Positions 1,751 to 17,001 of a stretch of DNA of 55,514 bases are shown one piece after another. The notes beneath the pieces are model-generated. The model was not told the origin of the DNA. It made no database searches and saw only the letters and a list, made by a program, of their open reading frames with translations. Position 1 is the first letter of the stretch, and every line of letters begins with the position of its first letter. The translations under genes were made by a program, and so were the position numbers. Source of the DNA: a virus. Lineage: Duplodnaviria > Caudoviricetes. The stretch lies in the IMG/VR virus record IMGVR_UViG_3300046724_000534, positions 1 to 55,514 of that record; one strand, 5' to 3'.

Positions 1751-1888
1751 AGTGGATCGGCTTGTTTCTTCTGATGAATCTAGGCGGCTGGCTTGGAGTA
1801 GGAGTGGCCGTTTTGATACTTCGATTACTTGGGGTGCCGTGGAGTCGCACAGAAGTCTGAACGCGCTCGGTGGGCGCGGAGGTGAAAA

Positions 1889-2669: not shown

Positions 2670-2939
2670 ATGCAAGGAAGACGAGAAGAAGCGGAAACCA
2701 TCGTCCGATTCGACCAAATCGAAGGGAAATGCCACGTCTGCGTCTCCAGTTGGCCAGCCATGGCTCGTAAAATGGCGCGCCTCTATGGAGAACCGCTTCC
2801 GAAAAGCTGCGCGCAAGTCCATTATTGGGTGATTCCCCTCAAAGCACTCACTTTCCGGCGTCCAAGCTCGATTGGAAAGGTCACAGGGAGACCATTTGTT
2901 GCCGGGAGACGTGCGGCTGGCGCGCAATCTGGCGATTAA
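2670..2939 (+). CDS. Hypothetical protein, last gene of the + strand arm
   Basis: AAGGAG SD; its stop overlaps the stop of the converging minus-strand gene at 2936-2939. Confidence 0.55.
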   Translation: MQGRREEAETIVRFDQIEGKCHVCVSSWPAMARKMARLYGEPLPKSCAQVHYWVIPLKALTFRRPSSIGKVTGRPFVAGRRAAGAQSGD

Positions 2940-3325
2940 CTGATCGAAACCGTACTTTGCTCCGAATTCGCTTCCGCGGCGTCTAAAGCCTCTTCTATGG
3001 CGTCGATCGCCGGCTGACTCTCATAGATGGTGTAGGCATCAATCCGGTTATCGGCCACGAGGATGCACCCCTCCGAATCGGTCGCTCGATTTCCGCCATG
3101 AATGAGAATGCCGCTGCGCCCCGGAACGTCCAGGTGCGGAGCAATGCGCCCGAGGCGTTCGCTCCACTGAAGTTTCACAGCGTAGGCGCCAGGCGGGACC
3201 ATCAGGGCAGTCGGTTCGAGGGTAAAGCAAACCTGTTCGCCGTCGAGTGAAAGCGTGCCGGTACTGCTGGCCCGGAACTCGGCATTCTCCGGGCCATACC
3301 AGAGGCGTTTCACCTCGAGAAGCAA
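2936..3325 (-). CDS. DUF5675-family protein, putative endolysin (L,D-transpeptidase-like fold)
   Basis: T.G.L..DG...CFTLE...PPG.Y...VPGRSGILIHGGN...DSEGCILV. Confidence 0.8.
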   Translation of the reverse strand: MLLEVKRLWYGPENAEFRASSTGTLSLDGEQVCFTLEPTALMVPPGAYAVKLQWSERLGRIAPHLDVPGRSGILIHGGNRATDSEGCILVADNRIDAYTIYESQPAIDAIEEALDAAEANSEQSTVSIS

Positions 3326-3329
3326 GCGA

Positions 3330-3830
3330 CTAGCGCCGGCGTGAGGGGTTCAGGCTGTAATTCAGCGATGCGCTGACCGCGACGGGCGTAGTCGGCGTAA
3401 CGGTGAAGGCCACCGAATCCGTCAAGCCGTTGCCTGTGTCGAGCGCGGACACGTTGGCTATGCCGGCGCCTTGCAGGGTAGCAATGCCCGTCGAAGCGTC
3501 CACCGTCACAACGGCGGTGTTATCGGACGCATACTGAACAGGTCCAATCGGCGCTACCGATGAACCATCAGCCGCGGATTCGGTGAACGTCGGTGTGGCT
3601 GTGTTTCCTGGTGCTCCGGTTACTGGATTTCCCATGGGGACTCCTCCTATGGAGTACGTAAGATTTGCTGCTACGGCTTCTGGTTCGGGTGGTGGAACAA
3701 GCTCTTGAATAGACTTGGCGATGAGCAGGAGTGCGCGAGCAATATCATCGGTTCCTTCACGAATCGACGCGGCAATGAGTTTTTGGCACTTGCAGTCATC
3801 GTCATCGTGGTGAAAAATCTTTTCGTCCAT
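3330..3830 (-). CDS. Ig-like (Big_2-type) domain protein with N-terminal helical extension
   Basis: VQYASDNTAVVTVDASTG...GAGIANVSA is a Big_2-like signature; second in-frame start with strong SD at 3635. Confidence 0.65.
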   Translation of the reverse strand: MDEKIFHHDDDDCKCQKLIAASIREGTDDIARALLLIAKSIQELVPPPEPEAVAANLTYSIGGVPMGNPVTGAPGNTATPTFTESAADGSSVAPIGPVQYASDNTAVVTVDASTGIATLQGAGIANVSALDTGNGLTDSVAFTVTPTTPVAVSASLNYSLNPSRRR

Positions 3831-3885
3831 ATCGATACCTCAATGTATCCGATCTGCGGGTACTAGGACTGTGCTGTTTTGAACG

Positions 3886-4641
3886 TTATGCCACCACCAT
3901 CGACAAATCTTTTTCCAAATCGCTCAGAAGGATACCACTCGGGTCAAGCCCTCGAGAGTTAATCCAATCGGGAGAGAGCAGCGCGTGACACTCATCCAGG
4001 TAACGTTTATCATTCCAGAAGTCCCAAGACATCAGGAATCGACTACCCCATGTATCGCCGATGAGGTACTGGCTGTTATATCCGCATATCCAAATCGCGT
4101 GCGCTCCGACGATCCCGCCATCGTTCTGAAGTGGGGTAATGGGTTGGCCAGTGGCAAACTGATCCATAAAAGATTGTGGGACCGAAAATCCGATGTATAC
4201 GCCGCCAAACAGGAAAATTGCCTGCTTTACATGCAGGGTTGTGGCTGGATGCGGGTCGGCGTAGGCCATGATCTTATGGCCACCGATGCCGGTTTGCCGG
4301 AAGAAATTCAGAACGTCCAGCTCTACGCCGCCCTGATCGGTGTTCGGGTCGCTGGGATTGTATCCGCAGGCGTCCTCATATCCGGTCAGGATGGCTGAAT
4401 CCGGCAAGGTAATCATGCGGCCATTGCAGAGCGACCATGTTTGAATCGCATGACCACAGGCCGCAATAGTGCAGTCACCGAGGCTGTCATTTAACATGAC
4501 ACCGAAATTTATATTAAATCCGCGGCTGTAATCGACACGTTCCGGTGGCGGCTGCAAAGCAGGGGTTAGATACTTCGCCAGCATTAACGTCCTTGGATCA
4601 TGGCGAGCCGGGTTTTTTCCGAACTTACCTGCTCGTGGCAT
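3886..4641 (-). CDS. Papain-like (C1-type) cysteine peptidase
   Basis: NDSLGDCTIAA (catalytic Cys), GAHAIWICGY (catalytic His), DTWG. Confidence 0.75.
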   Translation of the reverse strand: MPRAGKFGKNPARHDPRTLMLAKYLTPALQPPPERVDYSRGFNINFGVMLNDSLGDCTIAACGHAIQTWSLCNGRMITLPDSAILTGYEDACGYNPSDPNTDQGGVELDVLNFFRQTGIGGHKIMAYADPHPATTLHVKQAIFLFGGVYIGFSVPQSFMDQFATGQPITPLQNDGGIVGAHAIWICGYNSQYLIGDTWGSRFLMSWDFWNDKRYLDECHALLSPDWINSRGLDPSGILLSDLEKDLSMVVA

Positions 4642-4697
4642 CAGTGTCCTTTATGCTAAAATGCGGCTGGTAGCAACGGTCCATTGGAGGTGAACCG

Positions 4698-5240
4698 ATG
4701 CCAAAGGGAGTTTACCCTCGCCACGTGAAACGCCACGCGGTTATCCAGCCGCAAGATCAATCCTACAAGATTATCGCTCTGACGCAGGGACAGAATACGC
4801 TTGTTGATGCCACCGATTACGAGTGGCTGAATCAATGCTCTTGGACGGCTAGATGGAACCCATGCACTCAAAGCTTTTATGCGTTGAGAACCCGCAAAAA
4901 TAAAACGGTTTACATGGCCCGATATATTTTGAACTGCGGTTTTGGAGAAATTATCGATCATATAAACCACGATACTCTTGACAATCGAAGACAGAATCTT
5001 CGCAAATGCACTGGAACACAAAACAAAACAAACAGCAAAATTTATCGTAACAACAAGTCTGGATTCAAGGGAGTTCACTGGCATAAACGGGATGGAACTT
5101 GGGGAGCGTCCATTGGATATAATGGGAAACAAATTCATATTGGTTATTTCGCCACTCTTGAGGAAGCGGCACGAGCCTACAACGAAACTGCTAGACAACT
5201 TCATGGTGAATTCGCCTACCTCAATGCTATCTCTGGGTGA
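4698..5240 (+). mobile_element. Free-standing HNH-AP2 homing endonuclease gene, antisense to the lysis module
   Basis: IDHINHDTLDNRRQNLR (HNH); NKSGFKGVHW..W.ASI...IHIGYF.TLEEAARAYN (AP2); own TGnTAAAAT (4654-4662) and GGAGG SD. Confidence 0.9.
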
Positions 5241-5803
5241 TGATTTATAGTGGCCACAGCATTAAAATCAGATTTGAAATCCTTTACATTCTTGTAGTAT
5301 TTAGGTGTGATCGTAAGAGTCTGGTTGCCTATGCGAACAGAAGTAGCCATGGCTGTTGGTCCTGCCGGTAATTGCCCCAAGAATCCTGCCAGCGCATTGA
5401 GAATTATACGGGCAAGCCCCATGACAATAATAACGATTGGGTTCGTTCCCAAATTCAATTGATTCAGGAAAGTACCAAAGTTGTCCGCTATATCTTTCAG
5501 CAGAGTGCGTATTTTCGCTAGCAGCGTTGCCTTGTCCGCAACATTAGTGTCGGCATTGTACTCAGCAACAACGGCGGATAGTGAGGCGAAACCTGCTTTT
5601 ACTAATGTGATAATCGCAGCGGCTCCGGGCGGCACCAGTGGCCCAAGCAGCGCGACAATGCTATCGACCGCCGCGATGCCTACCGGAATCCACGTCATAA
5701 TCTGATCGAAAACACCACAGCCAGTTAGGGCCACCGAGAATCCACCCGCGAAGGCCAAGAGCGCGAAACTACCGATGCGACTTGCAAATGTTCGTCTGTT
5801 CAC
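5216..5803 (-). CDS. Predicted Tat-signal lipoprotein, amphipathic helical
   Basis: MNRRTF twin-arginine motif, hydrophobic stretch, lipobox LTGC. Confidence 0.65.
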   Translation of the reverse strand: MNRRTFASRIGSFALLAFAGGFSVALTGCGVFDQIMTWIPVGIAAVDSIVALLGPLVPPGAAAIITLVKAGFASLSAVVAEYNADTNVADKATLLAKIRTLLKDIADNFGTFLNQLNLGTNPIVIIVMGLARIILNALAGFLGQLPAGPTAMATSVRIGNQTLTITPKYYKNVKDFKSDFNAVATINHHPEIALR

Positions 5804-5966
5804 AGATTCCTCATTTCTTCTTGATCTCTAGGTATTCGTATGGGGGCTTTCCACACACAATCAGCCTGCCCGTAGCCAGCCCCCATAAATCTCGAACATG
5901 TCCCCACGGCTCGCAATCCCAGATTGCTTTCAGTAACCTGAACCAATAATTCATTCAAGCATCTCC

Positions 5967-6179
5967 TTAGCGGTGAAATTGAAATATTGGTACTACCGGA
6001 ACTCCGGCGATTCCCAGCCACCCAGCCACCGTGAGTATCACCAAAAGCACGCAAAGCACGATCGCGGTCCAGGTAATCAGCGTCTTGAATTGATCGTTGA
6101 TCCAAGGAAAGGATTGCAGGAAATAGACTCCTACTCCGACGACGAACACGATAAACAACAGCGCGAGCACTTGCATCAT
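5967..6179 (-). CDS. Small two-TM membrane protein (holin/antiholin candidate)
   Basis: Two hydrophobic helices; AAGGAGG SD; lysis-module position. Confidence 0.6.
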   Translation of the reverse strand: MMQVLALLFIVFVVGVGVYFLQSFPWINDQFKTLITWTAIVLCVLLVILTVAGWLGIAGVPVVPIFQFHR

Positions 6180-6192
6180 GACGGTTTCCTCC

Positions 6193-6417
6193 TTAGACTT
6201 TCGGATTTCCAGTGAGAGTCGCTTCCTTCGTCACATGCAGCCGGCCGTACACGGCGCCCGCCCAGCCCACGATCGCCACGATCAGGCCAATCACCGCATC
6301 TTGGTTCGTCGCGTTGAGGCCGAGGACCACCAGCGCCTTCGGGTACACCGCGCCAATGAGTCCAAAAGTGGATGACCAGAACGTGACGCTCGAAAAAATC
6401 GACTTTACTCCGTCCAT
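6193..6417 (-). CDS. Putative holin
   Basis: KSIFSSVTFW N-terminus, two TM segments, AVYGR..A C-terminal motif common in small phage holin-like proteins. Confidence 0.65.
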   Translation of the reverse strand: MDGVKSIFSSVTFWSSTFGLIGAVYPKALVVLGLNATNQDAVIGLIVAIVGWAGAVYGRLHVTKEATLTGNPKV

Positions 6418-6426
6418 TAAAGCCTC

Positions 6427-6834
6427 CTAGAGTCTCAAATAGTGTGCCAGTATCCCATACAACCCCATCAGCGCGCCGGCAATTGCGAATCCCTTCACCC
6501 ACACCGACTCAGCCGTTACATGGCTCCCCTGCGCCAAGAAGTTGGACCGCTCCAGAATGACTACTCGGCCTTCGAGAGCACTGCGCTTCGATTCCTCGGT
6601 GTCCATTAAGCCCCGCACCTTATCCTCGGTCATAAAGAGCGCGCGCTGGTCGATATTCTCTTGCCGCCATTCATTCGACGCCGCTTGGCTTCGCTCCAGG
6701 GCTTGCCGTGCCAGCACTAGGGCATTTTCCTGAGCAATGATTTTCTCCTGCATTCGTGCAATCTGAATCTCGAGCGCCTGTATCTTTTCGAGTTTGTCGA
6801 ACCACTTCTGTATCTCATTCGTGGCATCCGGCAT
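6427..6834 (-). CDS. Coiled-coil protein with C-terminal TM helix (lysis-associated)
   Basis: Heptad-rich body; hydrophobic C-terminus GFAIAGALMGLYGILAHYL. Confidence 0.6.
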   Translation of the reverse strand: MPDATNEIQKWFDKLEKIQALEIQIARMQEKIIAQENALVLARQALERSQAASNEWRQENIDQRALFMTEDKVRGLMDTEESKRSALEGRVVILERSNFLAQGSHVTAESVWVKGFAIAGALMGLYGILAHYLRL

Positions 6835-6852: not shown

Positions 6853-7875
6853 TTATTTCGATGTGCCGGTAGCCGTGGCGTTCAATCCGCCCACCGTAGC
6901 ATTCACCGTATAAGGCGATCCCGCTGGTACGTTTGTCGTTTTACCGATACACGTAATTGTATTAGCCGTCGGCGTGCAGGTTAAGGTCAGGGTCGGTGTG
7001 GGTGGCGGGACAGGCGTGACGAGTACCAAGTTGTCCGAACCGACATAGCCTGTACAGTTTGCTGCAATGAGTGCCGCGCCGGCGCACACATCGAACTTCA
7101 CCTGTACCCAGATCCAGCCTCCTGTGTTCGGTACTTGGGCAGCCGTCCCTACGGTTCCCAGCGATCCCTTAGGGACGGTTCCCAACAACGTGCCAAGCCC
7201 GCTGACCGGCGCCGTGCTTCTCACGTTCGCAGTCTGCAAGGTCTTGACCCGATCCCCTGCGGTGAATCCAGAGGCGGGCGCCGCAACCGTCACCGATGCG
7301 CTGGCTGATTTAGTTGAATCGGCCACACTGGTTGCCTTCACCGTGGACACACCCGCTGGTCCCGCGGTAAACAATCCCGCTTGCGTCACCGATCCTGCCG
7401 TGGTGGACCACGTTACCGCCGTATTCGTATTTCCGGTTACGGTGGCTGTGAATTGCTGCTGTTTTCCAGGCGCGACGTTCGCGGAAGGCGGCAAAATCGC
7501 TACGCTCACAACCGGCGTCACATCGGGCGGCGTGGTTACGGAAGCAGTGTTCGAAGCATCGCTGTCTGCGCAGCCCGGCACATTCACAGCGGCCGGACAG
7601 GGGTTGTAAAATGCGGTCACGTAATAGGCGTACGTGGTCGAAGCATTGAGGCCCGTATCCATGTATCCCGGCGTGAGCGGGCTGGCGATAGCGAGGCCGT
7701 TGCGGAAGACGTGATAGTTCACTCCCGGCGTGGTGCTCGCGCCCCAAGTGAGAGTTACGGAATGTGGTCCCGTCGCGGTCGCTCTTACACGCGGCGTCCT
7801 CTCTTTATGCGACTGTGCGTTTGCGCTCGTGCCCACCAGGGCCATGAGCAGCACGATAGGTAATAATGTCCGCAT
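6853..7875 (-). CDS. Secreted FN3 + Ig-like (Big_2) + SH3-like domain protein
   Basis: Signal MRTLLPIVLLMALVGTSANA/QS; FN3 (VTLTWGAS...YHVFRNG...YMDTGL...YAYYVTA); Big_2 (QQQFTATVTG..NTAVTWS...GLFTA); SH3-like (GDRVKT..TANVRS...WIWVQVKF). Likely start ATG 7875. Confidence 0.8.
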   Translation of the reverse strand: MRTLLPIVLLMALVGTSANAQSHKERTPRVRATATGPHSVTLTWGASTTPGVNYHVFRNGLAIASPLTPGYMDTGLNASTTYAYYVTAFYNPCPAAVNVPGCADSDASNTASVTTPPDVTPVVSVAILPPSANVAPGKQQQFTATVTGNTNTAVTWSTTAGSVTQAGLFTAGPAGVSTVKATSVADSTKSASASVTVAAPASGFTAGDRVKTLQTANVRSTAPVSGLGTLLGTVPKGSLGTVGTAAQVPNTGGWIWVQVKFDVCAGAALIAANCTGYVGSDNLVLVTPVPPPTPTLTLTCTPTANTITCIGKTTNVPAGSPYTVNATVGGLNATATGTSK

Positions 7876-8224
7876 TTTGCTCCGCACCTTTCTTTCCCTC
7901 GAAAAACCGCATAACCAGTTCTTGCTTTGTTCGTACAGCGTACCGCTGCAATATGATACTGACATGAAACTTGACTGTACGTTCAGAGACAAATAAAACT
8001 TCGGCCAACTCTTTGTTCGAGAAGGTAGGGTGCGTTTTGATTAGGTTCACGATCTCCATTTGCCGCCTGGTTAACGGCGCCGTCGGCTGTGCTTGCAACT
8101 CCTGAACCAGTTTAGAGGCAAGCTCGGTTTCACGAATCATCAACTCTCTCAGTTTCACTTTGAGCGGTATAATCTGAGCCTTCACTTTCTGCCATTCAAA
8201 CCACGCTTTATCTTCTCGTCTCAT
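7805..8224 (-). CDS. LuxR/GerE-type HTH transcription regulator (no receiver domain)
   Basis: LTRRQMEIV.L.....SNKELAEVLFVSERTVKFHVSIILQR. Confidence 0.85.
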   Translation of the reverse strand: MRREDKAWFEWQKVKAQIIPLKVKLRELMIRETELASKLVQELQAQPTAPLTRRQMEIVNLIKTHPTFSNKELAEVLFVSERTVKFHVSIILQRYAVRTKQELVMRFFEGKKGAEQNADIITYRAAHGPGGHERKRTVA

Positions 8225-8240
8225 GTTCGACTAATCCTTT

Positions 8241-10481
8241 CTAATATGCGAAGCAGCTAATCGCCAGAACGTCGCTATCCACCCAGGCGTGAGTCCCCAC
8301 AACGTCGGTATAATTTTGAAATGTAGCCGAGGCCGTTGTCGATGCGGTTTGCAGGGTCGCGGCAACCAGGGTACTTTTAGTCGTAATGTCGGTGGCGTAG
8401 CAGTTCCAGCCTGTTTTTGCCGCCGGTAAAGCAACTACACCAGTCCCGGTATTCGATGTCCCTACACCCAATCTAAAAGCGGTAGGCCCATTGGGATTCG
8501 CGCTCACGGCTGCGCCTGTTCCGAACCCGCTCGACACCGTAGGCGCCGTAGTTGGTTCTATATTCCCCCACCGACCGTTCATGTAGAAGATCATGCCACC
8601 TGCGCCACTGGCAGCCAGCACACCCGCCGTGCAGTCGGAACAATAAAGTTGAGAACCGTTCCCAGCCGTGGGCAGGGTGGCAAACGTGAAGGAGGAGCTT
8701 AGTTGGATAACAATATCATTAACACCACCACCAGCGGCGTATAAACCAGCCGTACCTAAATTCGTTTCGTTATCTTGATAAATCGTGTGCTCACCAATAG
8801 CATCCGTCCGCACGATGCACGTCGATATCGACATATCAACACACTGATTACCCTCAATACGATTGAAATTAGCTGTTACGTTTCCAAGGCCGTTGTCGAA
8901 GAAAAACCCATGGTCCGTAGCTTTATTATTCGCGTTGATGATGTTATCCTTCACCAAGTTCTGTAAAAAATCACCCATTGCCGGGATCGTAAAGCGAATC
9001 CCATAATTGTCACCACTAGGTGTATCCGCAGTGTTAAACGAGACTTGATTCCCACTTATAATCGCTCCGATACTCGGACCAGCGTTAAGATTAATCGCAC
9101 TGTTTCCACTCAAGCGAGTGAATGAAATTACGTTATTAGTAATTCGTACCGCACCACCACCCGCCTGAATAACGTCAACAGCGTGGCTTGCGTTTGATAT
9201 CTCGTCGTGGTCGAGTTGCAGGATTCCAGTTGATACTACGTCAGCGCCGTGAGTACCACCACCCGAGATATTACTATTTGTGACGATAAGATTTCCCGCA
9301 GGTGAAGTGATCGCAGGGTAGTTATTTGACTGTGAGATGAGTGATTGAGAAATCCACAATCGCTCCGTTGGATTAGAAATCGCAGCGGCTAGACCTACTG
9401 TTTGAATGTTTAAGTTTATGGCCTTGGTAATGATACCTGTACTAACGAGCGCGCTCCCTGTTGAGTCTGAGGAGTCGGTGATACTCACGTTATCTATTAC
9501 GGGTAGGAAGCCACTGGTAACCAACCCGTTAGCACCATAGGTGGCTAGGATACTATCTTTGAAGGTGTTATTCCCACCGCTATCAAGAATGTCGTCGGTA
9601 GCTTGCTGTGAGATGAAAACACCTTCTATAATCGCGTTGAAGGAGTTGCTACTTGTTATAAGACCGCTCCCTGTCTTACCCGTACCTCGATTCCCAATCA
9701 GGTTGATGAAGGAAACGTAGTTACTCGATCCATCGACCGTAAGCTGGTCGATGTTTGCAGTTTTATTAAATGTGCAGATTTGATCTGGCGTAGAGATCAA
9801 ACTAGTTCCTACGAAAGTGAATGTGTTATCACCAAGCACAATCGGCGCACTTTGGTTGATGAAGATACCACCGCAGTTCGTCGTCACAGGACGTGTGATT
9901 GTTACAGCGGTGCTCAGTGTTTGGGGGGAGGTAAAATTGCCCAAACTCACGAGTCCGCCATTAGGCGCAGCCGCTACACACGCGAGCCACTTCGCACCGA
10001 GGTCGGCTCCTGGAAAGGTGCTGCAATCAAGTCCCGCGCCACCTGAACTACCGCCACCACCCCCGCCACCACCCCCACCACTGCCCCCGCGTGCCGAAGG
10101 GAGACCTTGAATAATACTGACGGTAGTGGTGCCGCCGACGAGCGTGGACATGCGCAAGTAAAGGTTGGTGTAGCCGGAAGTGTTGACCTGCCACACGCCC
10201 GTTCCGGTAGTCGATGTGACCGCCGTGGTTGAATTGCTCGGAGTTGCGCTGATGGCTACAACTGTACTGCCACCATCGCCCGAAGCCTCGAACTGGATGG
10301 TATTCCCCGAAGGGTTTGCAGAAATGGTGAAGGTCGCTCCGCCTTGAGTCTGATCGACGGTTACGGAGAGGCATGAAGTTGTGGTGCAAGTGGCGCTTGC
10401 GGCTGACAGCGCTTTTTTTTGTTGTGCTCGAACCAAATTCGGCACGAGCAGAAACAGCAGAATGAGAGCAATGCGCTTCAT
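8241..10481 (-). CDS. Tailspike-like protein: signal peptide, beta-sandwich head, poly-Gly linker, right-handed beta-helix body
   Basis: AAGGAGG SD before ATG 10481; MKRIALILLFLLVPNLVRA/QQ; GGSGGGGGGGGGGSSGG; pectin-lyase-like I..N.I periodicity. Confidence 0.75.
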   Translation of the reverse strand: MKRIALILLFLLVPNLVRAQQKKALSAASATCTTTSCLSVTVDQTQGGATFTISANPSGNTIQFEASGDGGSTVVAISATPSNSTTAVTSTTGTGVWQVNTSGYTNLYLRMSTLVGGTTTVSIIQGLPSARGGSGGGGGGGGGGSSGGAGLDCSTFPGADLGAKWLACVAAAPNGGLVSLGNFTSPQTLSTAVTITRPVTTNCGGIFINQSAPIVLGDNTFTFVGTSLISTPDQICTFNKTANIDQLTVDGSSNYVSFINLIGNRGTGKTGSGLITSSNSFNAIIEGVFISQQATDDILDSGGNNTFKDSILATYGANGLVTSGFLPVIDNVSITDSSDSTGSALVSTGIITKAINLNIQTVGLAAAISNPTERLWISQSLISQSNNYPAITSPAGNLIVTNSNISGGGTHGADVVSTGILQLDHDEISNASHAVDVIQAGGGAVRITNNVISFTRLSGNSAINLNAGPSIGAIISGNQVSFNTADTPSGDNYGIRFTIPAMGDFLQNLVKDNIINANNKATDHGFFFDNGLGNVTANFNRIEGNQCVDMSISTCIVRTDAIGEHTIYQDNETNLGTAGLYAAGGGVNDIVIQLSSSFTFATLPTAGNGSQLYCSDCTAGVLAASGAGGMIFYMNGRWGNIEPTTAPTVSSGFGTGAAVSANPNGPTAFRLGVGTSNTGTGVVALPAAKTGWNCYATDITTKSTLVAATLQTASTTASATFQNYTDVVGTHAWVDSDVLAISCFAY

Positions 10482-10497
10482 ATAGTCGGACACCTCC

Positions 10498-11808
10498 TTA
10501 GCGTCCCACACAGATATAGCGAAGATGGTCGGTATTCGCTCCACCTGTCTCAGATATGGTTACCGATGCCGCCAAGTAACTTGTAAACGAGACAACTCCC
10601 GCCGCCGTGGTCAGGTCCGACCCGGTGCAAGAATACAGCGCATCGGTAAACGGCAGTGTGGTAATCGACTGCGTGGTGGCGGTATTCAGCGTGACATCCC
10701 CAAATACCACAATCGGAGTCGTTTGCACCGTCTTCGTACACGCCTGAGTTGCTCCCGAGGTCGCCCCGCAGTATTCCGTCACTCCAACCGTAGGAATCGA
10801 AACCGCTACTGCTCCCGAGGAGCCGGTGTGCGTTACAGTCAGGGTGGTGGTCGGATTCGTGCCTGTTCCCAGGACGTTTTGCAGCAACCAGGTATCCGCC
10901 GCCGATGCCGCGCCGTTCCAGTAATTGCCAATCAGCTTAAAATTGCCGGAATTGAAGTTCGCTATGTTGGTCGCCGCAGATGTTTGCATGGCAAGAACGT
11001 CGGTGGAAGCCGTAATGTCGGAAGCCGAAGCCACTTCCCCTAGATTGGCCATTCCCGCAAAGGTGAAACTTCCAGCGCCCGAGCCTGTATGCGTGATAGT
11101 CAAAGTTGTGGCTGGATTTGTTCCCGCCTGCACGAGATTCTGAAACGTGTAGTCGTCATTCGCGCTTGCCGCACCATTCCAGTACGATCCGCGAAACAGA
11201 GCGATCGGTGAATGCTGGTTCAGGATATTTGTTGCCGCAGTCGGATTGACCAGATTGAAGACATTGCCAGCCGCGGCGTTTTTGAGCGTTAAAAGAGAGT
11301 TTGCCGAAGACCAAACATTATTCGAATCGCAGGTCAGGATGTTGTTCGTGCCGTTTTGGTAAGCTACGCCGCCCGCGGTGGTGCAACTAATCACGCTTCC
11401 CGCATGGCTTCCCGGCAGAAGAACGGAATAGGAGCTGATCTCGGTTGATTCGTTGACCGAAGCGCCAGTAACGCTGGTGATCGTGCCGGTGATGAAAGAA
11501 GTGATCCCGTCCTGCCAGGTGATATGCCATTGATACGAGCATCCTGCCGGCAGAATCGAGTTCACATCGTAAACAACTTGCGTAAACGTGCCATTCCCAT
11601 CGAATCCGGTAATCGTAAACGTGCGCGGCACCGTGAAGCCGTTGAACGTCGGTTGCTGGTTCCCCGGACAAACGAGTGCCGCATAACCCGTGGAAAAGTT
11701 GTAGGCCGTTCCTACCGGATCGGTCACAGTCGCCGTCACGGTGGTCTGCTGCGCGCGCGCGAGGGCCGGAACGAGCAACAGTGCCGCGAGTAGAAGAAAT
11801 CGTCTCAT
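10498..11808 (-). CDS. Tail-fibre/appendage-like protein with signal peptide and internal duplication
   Basis: ATG 11808 overlaps upstream TAA; MRRFLLLAALLLVPALARA/QQ; two copies of YWNGAASA.D...QN...GTNP.TTLT.THTGS. Confidence 0.7.
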   Translation of the reverse strand: MRRFLLLAALLLVPALARAQQTTVTATVTDPVGTAYNFSTGYAALVCPGNQQPTFNGFTVPRTFTITGFDGNGTFTQVVYDVNSILPAGCSYQWHITWQDGITSFITGTITSVTGASVNESTEISSYSVLLPGSHAGSVISCTTAGGVAYQNGTNNILTCDSNNVWSSANSLLTLKNAAAGNVFNLVNPTAATNILNQHSPIALFRGSYWNGAASANDDYTFQNLVQAGTNPATTLTITHTGSGAGSFTFAGMANLGEVASASDITASTDVLAMQTSAATNIANFNSGNFKLIGNYWNGAASAADTWLLQNVLGTGTNPTTTLTVTHTGSSGAVAVSIPTVGVTEYCGATSGATQACTKTVQTTPIVVFGDVTLNTATTQSITTLPFTDALYSCTGSDLTTAAGVVSFTSYLAASVTISETGGANTDHLRYICVGR

Positions 11809-12415: not shown

Positions 12416-12586
12416 ATGAGCCTAATTGCTTTTGTGATCGGACTCTTTATTGCCATCACCCTGCTGCCTGTTTTGGCTTACGGGTTACTGTTTCTCTGCT
12501 GCTACGCCGCCTATGTGTTCGTTTTGATCTGCGATTTCATCGTTTCACTTAATCCCAAGAATCAATTTCACAAAAGCAGGGTTTGA
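12416..12586 (+). CDS. 56-aa membrane protein, antisense moron (superinfection-exclusion candidate; not in ORF track)
   Basis: MSLIAFVIGLFIAITLLPVLAYGLLFLCCYAAYVFVLICDFIVSLNPKNQFHKSRV. Confidence 0.6.
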   Translation: MSLIAFVIGLFIAITLLPVLAYGLLFLCCYAAYVFVLICDFIVSLNPKNQFHKSRV

Positions 12587-14650
12587 ATACAGCGCACTTA
12601 TGGCCCGATAAAATGGCAAACTCGCTAGTTGCCACTTATTTTGCGTTTGTCTAGTTGCCATATTCTCTTGAAATGAGCGTAGTTGCTTTTTTTTCCACTC
12701 CTCCGGGCTGAATGGAGTCGTTGGCTGAACCGCAGGATAAGCAGATTCCGTTGGAAATGGTTCCGAAGTCCGAACCGCTGGATAGCTAGATTGTGTTGGC
12801 AACGGTTGTAACTCCGGTGGGGCTGGTGGCGTTTTGCGCGTCGGCTCCACGAGTTCATCCACTATTTTCGCGCCCGCCGCGCGCAACGCACGAACTTTAC
12901 CGGCAATTTCGGTGTCGCCACCGAATCCGCGGTACTTGTGCAGGACATCAATAAGGTTCTGCCCTTCTTTGCCGGCAATGATCGAAAGTCGGTCTTCCGG
13001 GTTGGTCGCATTCATCAACCTGTAGGCCGGAGAATCTTTGTCTAAAAACCGCTGCGCGTATTCGCTGTAGTCGAACTGGATTTGCTTCCATGCAGCGCCA
13101 GCATTTTTGCTGTCAGCAAAGGTTTGCAGCTCCGTGTCAATGGCTTCCTTAACGCTCTTTAGCGCGCGATACACATCTTGCGGAAGTTGTGATCCGCGAA
13201 GTTTCGCGTTGAGTTCCTGAGCGTATCCCCAAGCGTCTTTATGGGCCAGTTTTATATTCTGGCCGGGAAGCATCTCGATCGGTTCCTGCCCTGGCATAGC
13301 GGTTCTGGCTATGTCTGCCTCGCTAATTCCTTGCGCTGCCAGATTAGCAAGAATCTGCTTGCGCATGTTCGGATTAGCTTTTTGCAGGATCTCTTTCATG
13401 TTCTGCGTTGCTTCGGTGGCCTGCGTGGTCTTGAAGACAGAAGCATCGTCCAGTTGCGGCGATTCCTTCATAATGTTGCGGAACAGCGCGAGGCTATCCG
13501 GAGAGCCTTGCAGGATATTGTCCTCGGCGTTTTTGACGGCTTGCTGTACCGGAGTCCAATCGACCTGCGGATCTGCTCCAAGCGTTCCCCGGAAGGCGTC
13601 ATACCGTTTGTTGAAGGCAGTTTTCAGGTTGTCTCGTGTTTTTCCGGCAATCTCTCCGACCTTATCCGACCAGGCTTGTAACCGTTGCTTGGTTGCTCCG
13701 GCCGCTTCGCTCGTCGCTGATGGACGTGAACCCTTTTCTTGAGAGGTCAACGCTTGCGCGGAGCGGGCTCGCTCGAATTTCTGCATGTCGCGCTTATATT
13801 GTGCTTCCATGAGAAGTTTCTGCTTTTCGTAATCGGCTGCGGTCTGCGCGTTTGCTTCCTCAATCTTTCGTACCGCTTCCTCACTGGTTTGACGGGCACG
13901 CGATACATCCTGAATGTTTTTAGTTGTGATTTCATGGTTCTTTTCGGCGGCTTGGCGGGTCGCTTCCTCGCTCGCTTGGCGGGCGCTACTAATGGCCACC
14001 GCGTTTTCTTGTTGGTTTGTAGCTACTTCCGCCCCATGTTTTTGAGATGCGAATTGTTCCGCCACCCGGCCAATTCCGAGCGGTGCCTGCGCACCTTTGC
14101 GCACGATTCTCCCTTCTACTTCCAGGGTCTTTTTAGCAGCAGGTTCACCCGCGCGCATAAGTGCTAACTGCCCGAGGGAAGATGCCACCTGGGTCAGCCC
14201 TTGATAAAGACCATAGCGGTCGCCCGTGCGGTAGGAGTCATAGGCTTTCTTGCTGCCTTCCTCGATCGCCGTAGCCGTGGCGTCGATGCCTTTGGCAAAT
14301 AGATGTGCAGGAGCCAGAGGACCGGCCTTGGCGAGCGATTCAAACATCTGCTCACCCATCACGTCGGTTGTCTGTCCAGCGCCGGATTTCAATGCGTCCA
14401 CCGTGCTTTTGGCGCTCTCGACTTTTTCAGGATCAATGCCGAACGACTGGAGAATGGTTGACGGGATCGCACGAATCGGATGCTGCTGCTGGAAAGCATT
14501 GAGAATCGGGCCGCCGGGTTTTGTCTGCATCGAGCCAGGCATCATCTGCGGCGTCTGCGGCGGAGCAGGCACCCATTGGTTATTCCGCAGAACAATCTTT
14601 TGCCCTTTATCGTTCTGTAGAACGTCGCCTTCTTTGTATGTTTTTGGCAT
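12545..14650 (-). CDS. Large internal virion / DNA ejection protein
   Basis: 701-aa Ala/Gln/Lys-rich helical protein, last of four genes after the nozzle, as in P22-like gene order. Confidence 0.6.
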   Translation of the reverse strand: MPKTYKEGDVLQNDKGQKIVLRNNQWVPAPPQTPQMMPGSMQTKPGGPILNAFQQQHPIRAIPSTILQSFGIDPEKVESAKSTVDALKSGAGQTTDVMGEQMFESLAKAGPLAPAHLFAKGIDATATAIEEGSKKAYDSYRTGDRYGLYQGLTQVASSLGQLALMRAGEPAAKKTLEVEGRIVRKGAQAPLGIGRVAEQFASQKHGAEVATNQQENAVAISSARQASEEATRQAAEKNHEITTKNIQDVSRARQTSEEAVRKIEEANAQTAADYEKQKLLMEAQYKRDMQKFERARSAQALTSQEKGSRPSATSEAAGATKQRLQAWSDKVGEIAGKTRDNLKTAFNKRYDAFRGTLGADPQVDWTPVQQAVKNAEDNILQGSPDSLALFRNIMKESPQLDDASVFKTTQATEATQNMKEILQKANPNMRKQILANLAAQGISEADIARTAMPGQEPIEMLPGQNIKLAHKDAWGYAQELNAKLRGSQLPQDVYRALKSVKEAIDTELQTFADSKNAGAAWKQIQFDYSEYAQRFLDKDSPAYRLMNATNPEDRLSIIAGKEGQNLIDVLHKYRGFGGDTEIAGKVRALRAAGAKIVDELVEPTRKTPPAPPELQPLPTQSSYPAVRTSEPFPTESAYPAVQPTTPFSPEEWKKKQLRSFQENMATRQTQNKWQLASLPFYRAISALYSNPAFVKLILGIK

Positions 14651-14659
14651 CTACTGTAC

Positions 14660-15565
14660 TCAGTAAAATCCTTCCGGTGGCTGGGGCGCTTCTCTTTGTA
14701 CTCCCTGCTTAATGCTCTTGAGAATGTCTGTATATTCTTGCGCAGTGTAAGCGACAGAGGAATACGGCGCACGCCCCATTGTCCCGATAAACGGATAGCT
14801 GGGAACCCTTCCCCGGCCCATTAAATCCTGCTTGTAAGAGGTACCGCCAAAAACTCGATCCGCAGCGTCGGCAAGCCTTCGACTATCTTCCGCCGTTGGT
14901 TTCTCCGGCACCTTGGAGGAAAGCAAGTTTTGAATATCGGGAGGGATTGGCTTCGGTGGCTTGCTTGCCGCCAACCAATTTTCATAGGTTCTTTGTTCTG
15001 GTGGAACAGTCTGCGCCCACAACAAGAACGGGTTCAGTTGTCCGCCACCTGAACTCTGAATTGGGAACTTGGTATTTACCGGCGCCTGCTTCCACTGTTG
15101 CCCGTTTTTATCGAAATACCACAGTCTTCCGTGCTGATCGACACGTTCGCCTTCAATACCGATCGTCGGTTTCTCAGGTGCGCGGGATAGTTTGTACCAG
15201 TCCTCGAGCGGTGCGTTCGGGTTTTGCGCGCGCCATGCCTCGAACGGCGTCGTAATCTTCGCGGGTGCTTGCGGCCCTGGACCCTTGAGCGGCTGTAAAT
15301 CGTATTTCCCGGTCTGTGGGTTCCAGGTCACGCCCGAAAGTTCTCCCAGCGGTCCTTTTTCGATGCCCGCACCTTGCGCGCTTTTCATCTGCCGGATGCG
15401 CTCTTGCAAGTCCTGCACTTGCAGCGGTCCCATGATGTCGGCGAGTTTCTGGCGCGCGTTCTCCATCGCCATTTGTTGCAGGCGTTCTTTCCAGCCGAGG
15501 TTGATGTCGTACCCTCGACCGACATCGCTGCCGAAATTACCTAATCCTCTGCCAAGCCAGCCCAT
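14660..15565 (-). CDS. Internal virion / ejection protein
   Basis: Gly-rich amphipathic N-terminus, Gln/Pro-rich, positional. Confidence 0.55.
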   Translation of the reverse strand: MGWLGRGLGNFGSDVGRGYDINLGWKERLQQMAMENARQKLADIMGPLQVQDLQERIRQMKSAQGAGIEKGPLGELSGVTWNPQTGKYDLQPLKGPGPQAPAKITTPFEAWRAQNPNAPLEDWYKLSRAPEKPTIGIEGERVDQHGRLWYFDKNGQQWKQAPVNTKFPIQSSGGGQLNPFLLWAQTVPPEQRTYENWLAASKPPKPIPPDIQNLLSSKVPEKPTAEDSRRLADAADRVFGGTSYKQDLMGRGRVPSYPFIGTMGRAPYSSVAYTAQEYTDILKSIKQGVQREAPQPPEGFY

Positions 15566-15566
15566 A

Positions 15567-16223
15567 TCAGTACCCCACGTCCGGAGGTGTCATTTCCGGC
15601 GGTATGTTCTCCTGAAGCGGATTCATTCCCAGCCAATCAATCGGTAGATTCGGTTGCGGCATTGCTCCGCCCGTCGGAATTGGATACGGCATCGTCGGAT
15701 AACTGCCCGCTGCACCGCCCGTCGGAGACTTACCGGGCGTAGAAGTCTTCGGGAAATTACCAGCCCCTTGAAAAAGCATAGCGATCAAAGGAGCCAGTTG
15801 CGCGTTCTGCGGAATGGTCGAAGCAAACTCCGCCGGCAAGCCTAGTTTGCGCATAACCAGTTGCAGGGCAGTCTGCTGGTTCTGCTGCTCCGGTAGCGCC
15901 AAGGCTTGTGCGAGTGTGGTTGCCTGAATCCCCGGTGCCTGCGAAAGTCCCTGCTCGGCGAGATTCGCGTTCACGTTACCAGTAATTGCTTGCACCAATC
16001 CGCGATTCAGTGGTTGCGTGGCCTTTGTGACCATCTCGGAAAGCTGTTGCGGCGTTAGGTTGGCGTTGGCTTGCGCTTCCTTTGCAGCGATGGAGCGCTG
16101 GTGATCCGCCGCAAGGTTGCCGACGAGTCCCGCGCCGGTCGCGCCGAGCCCCGCCACTTCGCCGAGCCCCTTCCCTGCCGGACTGCCGAAGAATGATCCG
16201 ATGTTTCCAAGCATTTCACTCAT
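15567..16223 (-). CDS. Internal virion / pilot protein
   Basis: Gly/Ala-rich N-terminus then Gln-rich helices; positional. Confidence 0.55.
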   Translation of the reverse strand: MSEMLGNIGSFFGSPAGKGLGEVAGLGATGAGLVGNLAADHQRSIAAKEAQANANLTPQQLSEMVTKATQPLNRGLVQAITGNVNANLAEQGLSQAPGIQATTLAQALALPEQQNQQTALQLVMRKLGLPAEFASTIPQNAQLAPLIAMLFQGAGNFPKTSTPGKSPTGGAAGSYPTMPYPIPTGGAMPQPNLPIDWLGMNPLQENIPPEMTPPDVGY

Positions 16224-16231
16224 TTTTTCAC

Positions 16232-16621
16232 CTATACATTATTGATGAAGTCGCTCAAGTTCACGTTTCCGGTGGCCGCGTTGGTCGGTTGCGAATTGGC
16301 CGGCTTAAACACCGTAGCGTTCGCGCCCGCCTGCGATCCTGGTTGACCGAGTGTTCCTGCGTTCAGTTGATCGGTAATCAGCCGGTAAAAATCTCCCGCC
16401 GTACCCGAAGTTTGCCCTTGCGTGTTCGCATCGGCGGTTCCAATCAGCGCTCTTTGCCGCGCGAGTGTCTGCAAATCCGGTGGCGTCGGTGCGGGTGCCC
16501 CTGGCGCCGTTGGTGCCGCGGGGCCACCGCGGTTCGCAATCGCTTCTCCGATTGAAGTCCCGGCTCCCGCAATTCCCGCAATAGACGCAATCGTGGGCAG
16601 CAACGCTATAAGGGGTGGCAT
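16232..16621 (-). CDS. Small internal virion / pilot protein
   Basis: Hydrophobic IASIAGIAGAGTSIG N-terminus, Pro-rich linker; positional. Confidence 0.55.
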   Translation of the reverse strand: MPPLIALLPTIASIAGIAGAGTSIGEAIANRGGPAAPTAPGAPAPTPPDLQTLARQRALIGTADANTQGQTSGTAGDFYRLITDQLNAGTLGQPGSQAGANATVFKPANSQPTNAATGNVNLSDFINNV

Positions 16622-17001
16622 CGTTGTTTCCTTTCGAGTGATCCCACCAGAATCACTTGTGGCGTCTGTAATTGAAGGCCGCCGTATTTTCTACAGGCTC
16701 GCAATAATTTTTGATCCACCGTCGGGTCCAAGTGAAAGAAATAGCCCTTAAAACCCCTTGCCGAGCAATCCTGCCGTGTCTTTTCAATCAAGGCGCGAAC
16801 CACCATGGGACTCGACCCTTTTTTCACGCACAGACGCATGAGATAAATCAATCCGTGGCATGATCCAGCGAGCAAGATTCCTATGATTTGCCCATCCTTT
16901 TCGGCTACCCATGCCCATTGCCGGTCAACCTGCATCGCCTCAAAGCCAGTCCGGAGATGCTGCGGCATCGGTTCATCGTCTCGCAATGTACGCACAATCA
17001 T
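16606..17001 (-). CDS. GNAT-fold acetyltransferase-like protein
   Basis: MIVRTL...WVAEKDGQIIGILL...LI......RGF; ATG 17001 overlaps nozzle stop; GNAT-like genes often follow podovirus nozzle genes. Confidence 0.6.
   Translation of the reverse strand: MIVRTLRDDEPMPQHLRTGFEAMQVDRQWAWVAEKDGQIIGILLAGSCHGLIYLMRLCVKKGSSPMVVRALIEKTRQDCSARGFKGYFFHLDPTVDQKLLRACRKYGGLQLQTPQVILVGSLERKQRCHPL

What the first reader, a model, noticed from the sequence alone, without database searches (positions are those of the whole stretch)
6853..11808. Tailspike- and fibre-like proteins carry Sec signal peptides cleaved before Gln
Three late genes at the position of podovirus receptor-binding proteins, plus 37617-38582, start with classical signal peptides ending x-x-A/Q: LVPALARA/QQ (11808), LVPNLVRA/QQ (10481), VGTSANA/QS (7875) and IPAASRA/QS (37617). 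The first three mature proteins also have closely spaced Cys pairs (CTTTSC, CGATSGATQAC, CPAAVNVPGC, CAGAALIAANC) suited to periplasmic disulfide formation, and a +1 Gln can cyclise to pyroglutamate. Tailed-phage spikes normally fold and assemble in the cytoplasm without signal peptides. Inference: the phage exports its appendages, folds them oxidatively and adds them to virions at or after lysis, or displays them on the infected cell. The signal-peptide style suggests a diderm host such as Acidobacteriota (weak inference).
Basis: partly seen in the sequence, partly recalled or inferred. Interest (0 to 1): 0.85.

Follow-up and report, generated by a model that had tools for sequence, protein, structure and literature searches.

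The report
Phage fibre genes with export signals
An uncultured soil phage that probably infects Acidobacteriota puts ordinary bacterial secretion signals on its variable, fibre-like proteins, so this host-recognition-type gear probably matures in the periplasm and not in the cytoplasm where tailed-phage particles are built; whether it ends up on the particle is not shown.

Summary
Four genes (10498-11808, 8241-10481, 6853-7875 on the minus strand; 37617-38582 on the plus strand) start at ATGs preceded by Shine-Dalgarno sites. Each encodes a 19-20-residue leader with the expected parts: basic start, hydrophobic core, small residues at -3/-1, then Gln. The leaders are conserved as a feature, not as sequence. 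Of the best 150 cluster representatives carrying the N-domain of the 746-aa protein, 142 have such a leader.

New here:
- That N-domain is a XepA/YomS-type beta-sandwich (Z 14). XepA is a phage protein reported as exported and absent from particles.
- The domain is 48-60% identical in phages that share no detectable capsid, portal or nozzle protein with this one.
- All three genome matches are Acidobacteriota MAGs, and a sample of one of them also favours Gln at +1.
- The mature proteins carry even numbers of Cys (8, 12, 6, 2).

Sec export and oxidative folding are well supported by sequence. Attachment to virions is not shown. I put it at about 0.4, against 0.35 for exported proteins that never join the particle. 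This scan found the same pattern earlier on other DNA. My five searches aimed at the question (of nine in all) found no paper describing it.

The parts
10498..11808 (-). Gene for the 436-aa fibre-like protein P0001. It has a leader (residues 1-19), a transthyretin-like N-domain (about 21-133), a low-confidence shaft, and a C-terminal knob (about 342-436) with four invariant Cys.
   Evidence: Translation; SD site. AF2 model. Fold hits: A-1(L) neck fibre N-domain Z 8.3; Pam1 tailspike and R2 pyocin fibre knobs Z 7.1-7.7. Invariant C347, C357, C394, C433 in 36 sequences.
11752..11808 (-). Leader of P0001 (19 codons, ending ARA before QQ).
   Evidence: The model puts residues 2-19 in a helix.
8241..10481 (-). 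Gene for the 746-aa spike-like protein P0002. It has a leader, a XepA/YomS-like N-domain, a Gly-rich linker, a variable body and a shared C-terminal module.
   Evidence: Translation; strong SD site. In 47 homologues mostly only the first 13-18% is shared.
10425..10481 (-). Leader of P0002 (19 codons, ending VRA before QQ).
   Evidence: Leader columns are 32% identical against 63% for the N-domain over 903 pairs.
10083..10424 (-). XepA/YomS-like beta-sandwich N-domain of P0002 (residues 20-133), with a Cys pair that is invariant (C32) and nearly invariant (C37).
   Evidence: AF2 pLDDT 90.5. YomS Z 14.1 and XepA C-domain Z 13.8, next hit 7.5. PF27453 'XepA' on the nearest ESM Atlas clusters and precomputed on 2 homologues. 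Cys columns.
6853..7875 (-). Gene for the 340-aa Ig-domain protein P0003, with a 20-residue leader (7816-7875) and three close Cys pairs.
   Evidence: Big_2 at E 2e-4, just under Pfam's cut-off. phrog_215 'structural protein with Ig domain' at 8e-10. Leader-bearing counterparts in L002, L004, L005 and L008.
37617..38582 (+). Gene for the 321-aa protein P0004. It has a leader (37617-37676), an exported domain, and a C-terminal hydrophobic segment (residues about 245-263, nt about 38349-38405) followed by a basic tail.
   Evidence: Leader-bearing, anchor-less counterparts sit inside the leader block of relatives (L005 7281-7934; L008 8273-9043).
7805..8224 (-). LuxR/GerE-type HTH gene between P0002 and P0003. 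Its end overlaps the start of P0003 by 71 nt.
   Evidence: PF00196 GerE at E 2e-10; coordinates.
12545..21613 (-). Context upstream in the same late operon: adaptor (20351-21613), nozzle-like 1117-aa protein (16998-20351) and four leaderless, Cys-free internal virion proteins (12545-16621).
   Evidence: SU10_adaptor, weak. PF24175 precomputed on relatives. Cys counts.
2936..6834 (-). Context downstream: candidate lysis region. It holds a 135-aa protein with a C-terminal hydrophobic end (6427-6834), a twin-Arg/lipobox protein (5216-5803) and a DUF5675 protein (2936-3325).
   Evidence: Function was not tested.

Best explanation
**Proposed mechanism**
1. P0001, P0002 and P0003 are the phage's variable receptor-binding-type proteins. 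They are made late, as precursors with host-style Sec signal peptides.
2. Shown by sequence only: the leader has all parts of a type I signal peptide. It is kept across hundreds of relatives while its sequence drifts.
3. Inferred: SecYEG exports the unfolded chains, and signal peptidase I cuts after the A-x-A site to expose Gln.
4. Inferred: the proteins fold and oligomerise in the periplasm, and their paired cysteines form disulfides.
5. Inferred and unproven: fibre-less particles assemble in the cytoplasm. They meet the periplasmic fibres only when the holin opens the inner membrane at lysis, and the fibres dock then.

**Likely advantage.** The cytoplasm cannot make disulfide-stabilised extracellular proteins for an acid-soil host, so export would allow this.

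**P0004.** It is a fourth exported protein. In this phage it is membrane-anchored and is more likely a helper than a virion part.
For: **Starts and leaders**
- Starts, SD sites and leaders.
- Leader kept in 42 of 47 homologues of P0002.
- Leader kept in 142 of the 150 best representatives of its N-domain. Of the 8 others, 5 look N-truncated and there is 1 fragment, 1 marginal leader and 1 low-complexity hit.
- My cruder script called leaders in 148 of 162 family members, 79 of them with Gln at +1.

**Cysteines**
- Even Cys numbers and invariant Cys pairs in the leader-bearing proteins.
- The other virion proteins hold 0-0.7% Cys.

**Receptor-binding-type build**
- Conserved N-module, Gly linker and variable body.
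- One family member ends in Peptidase_S74, the tail-fibre chaperone domain, and hits tail-fibre PHROGs.
- P0001's ends resemble a neck-fibre N-domain and fibre-tip knobs (Z 7-8, so suggestive only).

**Position and lack of alternatives**
- The genes lie directly behind the internal-virion-protein genes on the same strand.
- In the complete relative G003 (terminal repeats) my ORF list shows no leaderless fibre-like ORF of 200 aa or more apart from the conserved nozzle.
- The leader-bearing genes are the variable ones. Capsid, portal and nozzle are 88-91%, 80-81% and 59-73% identical.
- The window's leaderless 914-aa fibre is absent from 5 of 5 relatives.

**Same N-module with and without a leader**
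- An N-terminal module (phrog_26190) sits at residue 1-4 without a leader in P0130 and P0131.
- The same module sits behind a leader in L006 and L007.

**Cultured phage**
- In Cellulophaga phage phi46:3, four consecutive genes annotated 'structural protein' carry such leaders before Gln. RefSeq names them pectate lyase or virion structural protein.
- That the label rests on virion mass spectrometry is recalled, not seen.
Against: - No experiment exists for this or any related phage. No trained signal-peptide predictor was run.
- The N-domain of P0002 matches no known virion anchor. It matches XepA/YomS, and XepA is described as exported yet absent from mature PBSX particles (PMC6834076).
- That N-domain is 60% and 48% identical in G004 and G005. 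These phages have no detectable homologue of this phage's capsid or portal protein. The nozzle finds nothing in G004 and a 42-aa snippet in G005, and only a 70-position stretch of the adaptor matches. Virion anchors usually track the tail proteins they dock on.
- P0001's N-domain is only 41-42% identical in close relatives whose capsid protein is 88-91% identical.
- Proteins with the same C-terminal knob and a leader lie in apparently cellular contexts in two Acidobacteriota MAGs: beside hydrogenase-maturation-like genes in L009, and as a 1591-aa protein in L010 (neighbours judged from N-terminal sequence only).
- Earlier checks of the same claim on other DNA in this scan priced the virion reading at about 10 in 100.
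Confidence: 0.4

Rival explanations
1. **Exported but never part of the virion.** The proteins would be XepA-like late proteins. They are sent to the periplasm, and after lysis to the surroundings. There they bind or cut the host's own envelope glycans or exopolysaccharide. This would help egress, keep progeny from sticking to debris, or remove receptors. Their variable ends would track host surface diversity for that reason.
For: - XepA/YomS homology of the P0002 N-domain.
- XepA is described as exported and not in mature particles (PMC6834076).
- The N-domain is conserved across phages with unrelated virion proteins.
- Leader-bearing relatives occur in cellular contexts in MAGs.
- P0004 is membrane-anchored.
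- The genes lie directly upstream of the candidate lysis region, as xepA does in PBSX (Fig. 1 of PMC6834076 was not seen, so the gene order is recalled).
Against: - It would leave the complete relative G003 with no variable fibre- or spike-like protein for host recognition.
- Three to five different large exported proteins per genome is a heavy cost for an accessory role.
- A signal peptide is not needed for release, since lysis frees cytoplasmic proteins anyway.
- Peptidase_S74 and fibre-knob modules are typical of virion fibres.
- The 1984 result on XepA concerns a defective phage of a monoderm, and XepA has no leader.
Confidence: 0.35
2. **Surface display or conversion proteins.** The proteins would be exported and then displayed on, or anchored in, the envelope of the infected or lysogenic cell. 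There they would change its surface, for example as superinfection exclusion or an adhesin. They would be morons carried in the late region.
For:
- P0004 has a membrane anchor.
- Phages of Porphyromonas carry Q-rule leader proteins of unknown function that were proposed to modify the host outer membrane (PMC10367356, passages).
- Cellular-context relatives exist.
Against: - No integrase or repressor was seen in the ORFs I scanned (not all ORFs were scanned).
- The genes sit in the late structural operon.
- No outer-membrane targeting feature was seen: no lipobox, beta-barrel or autotransporter domain.
- No relative of the N-domain was found in 185,579 species genomes. This fits lytic phages rather than prophages.
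Confidence: 0.1
3. **Not exported.** The true starts would lie downstream, or the hydrophobic N-terminus would be an uncleaved helix with another role, such as transient membrane tethering or part of a coiled stalk.
For: Nothing beyond the lack of experiments and of a trained predictor. Alternative in-frame GTG/TTG codons exist near the starts.
Against: - SD sites sit before the ATGs.
- The leader is kept in 142 of 150 representatives, with a median length of 22, and 140 have Lys/Arg before the core.
- Sequence drifts (32% identity) while the features stay.
- Gln at +1 matches the style of the presumed host phylum.
- The next Met in P0002 lies inside the conserved domain.
Confidence: 0.05

Closest known systems
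XepA (PBSX, B. subtilis) and YomS (SPbeta), Pfam PF27453
   Same: The P0002 N-domain has the same beta-sandwich. YomS: Z 14.1, rmsd 1.7 over 99 residues, 21% identity. XepA residues 177-279: Z 13.8. XepA is a late phage protein encoded next to the lysis genes. It is reported as exported beyond the cytoplasmic membrane (PMC6834076).
   Different: XepA and YomS have no signal peptide and come from a monoderm. XepA carries the domain at its C-terminus behind a C2-like domain, forms pentamers and has no fibre or spike body. Here the domain is N-terminal and always behind a Sec leader, followed by a Gly linker and variable fibre-like bodies. Oligomeric state was not tested.
Leader-bearing 'structural proteins' of cultured Cellulophaga baltica phages (phi46:3 gp079-gp082; relatives in phi19:3, phi19:1)
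   Same: Four consecutive large proteins, just upstream of a glycosyl-hydrolase gene and small hydrophobic ORFs, start with K-rich hydrophobic leaders that end before Gln. They are annotated as structural protein, pectate lyase or tail fibre.
   Different: The host is Bacteroidota and the phage family is different (Pachyviridae, about 73 kb). There is no sequence relation to the window's proteins. The experimental basis of the 'structural' label was not seen (paper not held).
Q-rule leader proteins of Porphyromonas gingivalis phages (PMC10367356)
   Same: These are phage genes whose predicted signal peptides expose Gln, in the host's own style (passages).
   Different: They are described as genes of unknown function, capsid proteins and spanins, not tail fibres. 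The host is Bacteroidota. The supplements listing the genes were not seen.
Leaderless podovirus fibres and tailspikes (T7 gp17, P22 gp9 type; recalled)
   Same: The position behind the internal virion proteins is the same, as is the build of conserved N-module plus variable receptor-binding body. Beta-helix and knob or chaperone modules occur in family members.
   Different: Those proteins have no signal peptide and fold in the cytoplasm. Their N-domains track the tail proteins, whereas here the N-domain crosses phage lineages. A paper on phage DGR fibres treats the absence of signal peptides as a mark of phage origin (PMC6199706).
Sec-exported and SAR endolysins (fOg44 Lys44, P1 Lyz)
   Same: These are phage late proteins that use the host Sec system before lysis (named in PMC6834076).
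   Different: They are small peptidoglycan hydrolases, not fibre-like modular proteins.

Membership tests
Type I (Sec/SPase I) signal peptide | Positively charged n-region | tested here: met
   MRR, MKR, MR and MKK in the four proteins. 140 of 142 leaders in the family have Lys/Arg before the core.
Type I (Sec/SPase I) signal peptide | Hydrophobic h-region of about 7-15 residues | tested here: met
   Best 10-residue Kyte-Doolittle means are 3.0-3.7. 142 of 150 representatives have a 9-mer of at least 2.0 in a leader of at least 15 aa.
Type I (Sec/SPase I) signal peptide | Small residues at -3 and -1; no Cys at +1 (not a lipoprotein); not a Tat leader | tested here: met
   The sites read ARA|Q, VRA|Q, ANA|Q and SRA|Q. 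P0001 has RR, but its leader is 19 aa and strongly hydrophobic, and its relatives mostly have KR or KK.
Type I (Sec/SPase I) signal peptide | Actual export and cleavage | not testable with these tools
   No proteomic data exist for this uncultured phage, and no trained predictor was on hand.
XepA/YomS family (PF27453) | YomS-type beta-sandwich fold | tested here: met
   Z 14.1 and 13.8, next unrelated hit 7.5. Foldseek E 4.9e-5 to YomS.
XepA/YomS family (PF27453) | Sequence match to the Pfam model | tested here: inconclusive
   PF27453 is precomputed on homologues P0006 and P0039 and on 30-32% of members of the nearest Atlas clusters. My Pfam scans of P0002 and P0006 gave no family; the model may be missing from that copy.
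XepA/YomS family (PF27453) | Pentameric disc | not tested
Podovirus tail fibre / tailspike (virion receptor-binding protein) | N-terminal domain that docks on adaptor or nozzle | tested here: inconclusive
   P0001 N-domain against the A-1(L) neck fibre N-domain gives Z 8.3, tied with unrelated transthyretin-like domains. The P0002 N-domain matches XepA instead.
Podovirus tail fibre / tailspike (virion receptor-binding protein) | Fibre or beta-helix body with a distal knob or chaperone domain | tested here: met
   Peptidase_S74 in P0019 (32 bits, cut-off 22). Beta_helix in P0102. P0001 C-domain against Pam1 tailspike, R2 pyocin and AP22 fibre tips gives Z 6.9-7.7. No Pfam hit in P0001 or P0002 themselves.
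Podovirus tail fibre / tailspike (virion receptor-binding protein) | Leaderless, folds in the cytoplasm | tested here: not met
   All carry leaders.
Podovirus tail fibre / tailspike (virion receptor-binding protein) | Present in the virion | not testable with these tools
   The phage is uncultured.
Bacteroidetes Q-rule substrates | Gln at +1 after the leader | tested here: met
   4 of 4 in the window. 79 of 148 called leaders in the N-domain family.
Bacteroidetes Q-rule substrates | Host in Bacteroidota | tested here: not met
   All 3 genome matches are Acidobacteriota MAGs. Clear SD sites are present; that Bacteroidota mostly lack SD sites is recalled.
Bacteroidetes Q-rule substrates | Glutaminyl cyclase in the host | tested here: inconclusive
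   PF05096 is absent from the 3 MAGs. The animal-type cyclase used by Bacteroidota was not searched.

The most novel reading that the evidence does not exclude
A large group of soil podoviruses of Acidobacteriota, and by the scan's earlier finds phages of other hosts too, build the head and inner tail in the cytoplasm but the whole receptor-binding apparatus in the periplasm. The fibres would be Sec-exported, leader-trimmed to Gln or pyroGlu and disulfide-bonded. They would join the particle only when the holin opens the membrane. This would be a two-compartment assembly line not described for any tailed phage. The XepA/YomS domain would be its periplasmic docking or oligomerisation module.
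Probability: 0.3. Interest if true: 0.9.

Novelty: new variant of a known kind. Interest (0 to 1): 0.65.

Why it matters
Textbook assembly of tailed phages is wholly cytoplasmic, and the absence of signal peptides is even used as a mark of phage fibres (PMC6199706). If these proteins are the receptor-binding proteins, several things follow:

- Host range in these phages would depend on the host's Sec, signal-peptidase and disulfide machinery.
- Recombinant production of such fibres would need periplasmic expression.
- Tools that predict host range or annotate virion proteins, and that discard leader-bearing proteins, would miss the key genes of many soil phages.

If they are not virion parts, they define a large family of exported, XepA-related phage late proteins. 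That would give the enigmatic XepA/YomS domain a wider context. Either way, the leader style offers a host-phylum clue for uncultured phages.

Tried and rejected
**Searches and tests that led nowhere**
- P0002 and the portal found nothing by tblastn among 50,697 cultured phage records.
- P0001, P0003 and the P0002 alignment gave no credible hit to sequences of solved structures.
- Pfam gave no family for P0001, P0002 or P0004.
- A viral-contig scan with the 301-aa internal virion protein found no relatives.
- A genome scan with the P0002 family alignment found no relative.
- The beta-propeller glutaminyl cyclase family PF05096 was absent from the three MAGs. This shows little.
- The one complex job (adaptor alignment with the P0001 N-domain, residues 20-135) gave 'no answer': score 0.18 against a mark of 0.32. 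It is no evidence either way.

**Readings considered and dropped**
- A Bacteroidota host on the strength of the Q-rule. I dropped it because of the SD sites and the Acidobacteriota matches.
- The leaderless 202-aa and 914-aa proteins (34261-37614) as the 'real' fibres of the group. I dropped it as a general answer because 0 of 5 relatives have the 914-aa protein. They may still serve this phage.

**Literature**
- Nine searches were run. Five were aimed at the question (25, 36, 38, 107, 112). None listed a paper describing Sec leaders on tail fibres or spikes of tailed phages.
- I read passages only, of PMC13001222, PMC5723332, PMC10367356, PMC10653852, PMC5837995, PMC6834076, PMC12494034, PMC1266369, PMC6199706, bioRxiv 10.1101/2020.10.09.334284, PMC5776456 and PMC9723584.
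- Supplements were not opened. Those of PMC10367356 and of the Bacteroides uniformis phage preprint list leader-bearing genes and may bear on the claim that this is not in print.
- The Holmfeldt 2013 paper on Cellulophaga phages is not held. What I say of its virion proteomics is recalled.

**Weaknesses of my scripts**
- The cleavage-site script misplaces sites in the P0001 family. It picks a V-T-A inside the mature domain, so its count of Gln at +1 there (18 of 52 called) is too low.
- I ran no control genome from another phylum for the Gln preference.

Full report
**What the window is.** The 55,514-base window is a whole IMG/VR virus record, linear, with CheckV completeness 99%. It has no tRNA genes and no terminal repeat. 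A long minus-strand late operon encodes:
- large terminase (30753-32552), portal (27532-29265) and major head protein (23382-24386);
- a 420-aa protein with a weak SU10-adaptor match (20351-21613);
- a 1117-aa nozzle-like protein (16998-20351);
- four internal-virion-type proteins (12545-16621).

Many relatives of the adaptor carry PF24175 as a precomputed family. The three minus-strand genes of the finding follow directly. After them come small hydrophobic or lipoprotein-like genes and a DUF5675 protein, a candidate lysis region. The portal and P0002 find nothing among cultured phages.

**The observation.** Each has one to two basic residues, a Leu/Ile/Val-rich core and small residues at -3/-1, followed by Gln. 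The mechanical ORFs begin further upstream at GTG or TTG. Shine-Dalgarno-like sites lie before the ATGs and are strongest before P0002, and relatives begin at the same point. My rule-based script flagged 6 of 59 ORFs of at least 100 aa in the window. These were the four proteins plus two doubtful frames. A twin-arginine lipoprotein-like ORF (5216-5803) scored lower. No trained predictor was available.

**Do homologues keep the signal?**
- *P0002, word-index search.* It has 47 homologues. Most share only the first 13-18% of the protein, at 44-90% identity, and have lengths of 416-1102 aa. Their longest contigs cluster at 54-58 kb. Of these, 42 show a full leader. The other 5 start inside or just after it and look cut by gene calling.
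- *P0002, scan of 1.84 billion representatives.* A scan with the mature N-domain alone gave 544 hits at E up to 0.001. In the best 150 the domain starts at about residue 20-47. Of these, 142 have a leader of at least 15 aa with a hydrophobic 9-mer (median leader 22 aa), and 140 have Lys/Arg before it. The 8 exceptions are five truncated starts, a fragment, a marginal leader and a low-complexity false hit. I saw no leaderless version of this domain.
- *Sequence drift.* Leader columns are 32% identical on average and N-domain columns 63%, over 903 pairs. This is how signal peptides evolve.
- *P0001.* Relatives with its N-domain also carry leaders on inspection. My script called leaders in 52 of all 83 relatives. 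The rest include truncated and truly leaderless proteins that share only the C-terminal part.
- *P0003 and P0004.* Counterparts with leaders sit in the same block in relatives.
- *Complete relatives.* G003 and G002 both have terminal repeats. G003 has five leader genes in a row behind the internal virion proteins. G002 has four.

**What the proteins are.**
- *P0002 N-domain.* Residues 20-133 fold with pLDDT 90.5 into an eight-stranded sandwich. It matches YomS (Z 14.1, rmsd 1.7 over 99 residues) and the C-domain of XepA (Z 13.8). The next hit scores 7.5, and Foldseek agrees. The nearest ESM Atlas clusters and two homologues carry Pfam PF27453 'XepA'. BFVD holds 15 matches at E up to 0.001, all uncharacterised phage proteins.
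- *What is known of XepA.* According to passages of PMC6834076, XepA appears 20 min after PBSX induction. It is exported beyond the membrane and is not in mature particles. It forms pentamers, and its role is unknown.
- *Rest of P0002.* Behind the domain come a Gly run and a variable body. One family member ends in Peptidase_S74 and hits tail-fibre PHROGs.
- *P0001.* The model has a helical leader, a confident transthyretin-like N-domain, a low-confidence middle and a confident C-terminal knob. The N-domain's best hit is the N-terminal domain of the cyanophage A-1(L) neck fibre (Z 8.3). The knob resembles Pam1 tailspike, R2 pyocin and AP22 fibre tips (Z 6.9-7.7). These values are in the band the tool calls middling. 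The knob has four invariant Cys in 36 sequences.
- *P0003.* It has Ig-like domains.
- *Cysteines.* Mature P0001-P0004 have 8, 12, 6 and 2 Cys. Scaffold, internal proteins and the leaderless 914-aa fibre have none, and the capsid protein has one.

**Host.** A scan of 185,579 species genomes with the P0001 knob alignment gave three matches, all MAGs of Acidobacteriota (Terriglobia): Ca. Acidiferrum typicum, an Acidiferrales bacterium and Ca. Sulfotelmatobacter. A source name agrees. One contig is phage-like, with two leader-bearing fibre genes behind internal proteins. Two look cellular. In 400 kb of the Acidiferrales MAG, 64 of 289 ORFs had leader-like starts, and Gln was at +1 in 18 of them. 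The next most frequent residue, Ala, occurred 6 times, and Gln makes up 3.5% of all residues. So the phage leaders copy the style of the presumed host. The papers on the Q-rule call it exclusive to Bacteroidetes and did not analyse Acidobacteria (PMC10653852 and PMC5837995, passages).

**Virion part or not?**

For the virion reading:
- These are the only variable, fibre-like proteins in complete relatives.
- Capsid, portal and nozzle are 59-91% identical.
- The window's leaderless 914-aa fibre is missing from 5 of 5 relatives.
- An N-terminal module (phrog_26190) occurs both leaderless at residue 1-4 and behind a leader.
- Cultured Cellulophaga phage phi46:3 has four consecutive leader-bearing genes annotated as structural proteins. 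RefSeq names them pectate lyase or virion structural protein. The experimental basis of that label I only recall.

Against the virion reading:
- The XepA precedent.
- The XepA-like domain is 60% and 48% identical in G004 and G005. These phages have no detectable relative of this phage's capsid or portal protein. The nozzle matches nothing in G004 and a 42-aa snippet in G005, and only a 70-position stretch of the adaptor matches. The domain is therefore not tied to this tail.
- P0001's N-domain is only 41-42% identical in close relatives.
- Cellular-context relatives exist.
- P0004 has a membrane segment that its relatives lack.

**Verdict.**
- Sec export, cleavage before Gln and oxidative folding are the best reading of the sequence. 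I give export about 0.85.
- The destination is open. I commit to periplasm-matured receptor-binding proteins that join particles at lysis (0.4). The alternatives are exported XepA-like proteins that never join the particle (0.35), surface display (0.1) and no export (0.05).
- The scan reported the same pattern before on other DNA. Later checks there priced the virion reading near 10 in 100. My figure is higher because of the census of complete relatives and the cultured Cellulophaga example.
- The XepA homology and the cross-lineage spread of the N-domain are new arguments for the rival.

Noticed in passing
L018-L037 (20 x 20 kb of MAG G007, Ca. Acidiferrales): Gln is by far the commonest residue after leader-like N-termini: 18 of 64, with Ala next at 6, against 3.5% Gln overall. 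This hints at a Q-rule-like habit in Acidobacteriota, although the papers I read call the rule exclusive to Bacteroidetes. The predictor was crude and I ran no control phylum.
   Followed up: partly
window 7805-8224 (-): A LuxR/GerE-type HTH gene sits between two leader-bearing fibre genes and overlaps the start of P0003 by 71 nt. It may be a late regulator inside the fibre block.
   Followed up: no
window 34261-37614 (+): A leaderless pair: a 202-aa protein with two DUF4183 repeats and a Cys-free 914-aa protein made of about 38-aa repeats. The 914-aa protein is absent from 5 of 5 relatives. The N-terminal motif of the 202-aa protein recurs in a 118-aa ORF of G002 (42363-42719), which lies between its capsid and adaptor genes.
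   Followed up: partly
window 16998-20351 (-): The nozzle-like protein aligns to relatives over residues 1-273 and 446-1117 only. The stretch between is an insertion or a swapped segment specific to this phage.
   Followed up: no
L009 1492-3114 and L010 5513-10288: Leader-bearing proteins with the same four-Cys C-terminal knob lie in apparently cellular neighbourhoods of Acidobacteriota MAGs. One is next to ORFs that look like hydrogenase maturation genes by their first residues; this was not tested. Phage fibres and host secreted proteins may share one module pool.
   Followed up: partly
window 5216-5803 (-) and G003 1399-2010 (+): A twin-arginine plus lipobox protein is conserved next to the lysis-type genes in both phages.
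   Followed up: no
window 4698-5240 (+) and 22881-23369 (-): An HNH + AP2 endonuclease gene (Pfam), and an ORF whose start reads like a LAGLIDADG endonuclease, next to the capsid gene (not tested).
   Followed up: no
window 2936-3325 (-): A DUF5675 protein with a weak Tlde1 (L,D-transpeptidase-like) match is the only candidate wall enzyme I saw in the window. G003 has at the equivalent place a 152-aa ORF that looks like a peptidase by eye (not tested).
   Followed up: no
window 29262-29528 (-): An 88-aa ORF next to the portal gene starts with MERRKLL and a moderately hydrophobic stretch. It may be a further exported or membrane protein.
   Followed up: no
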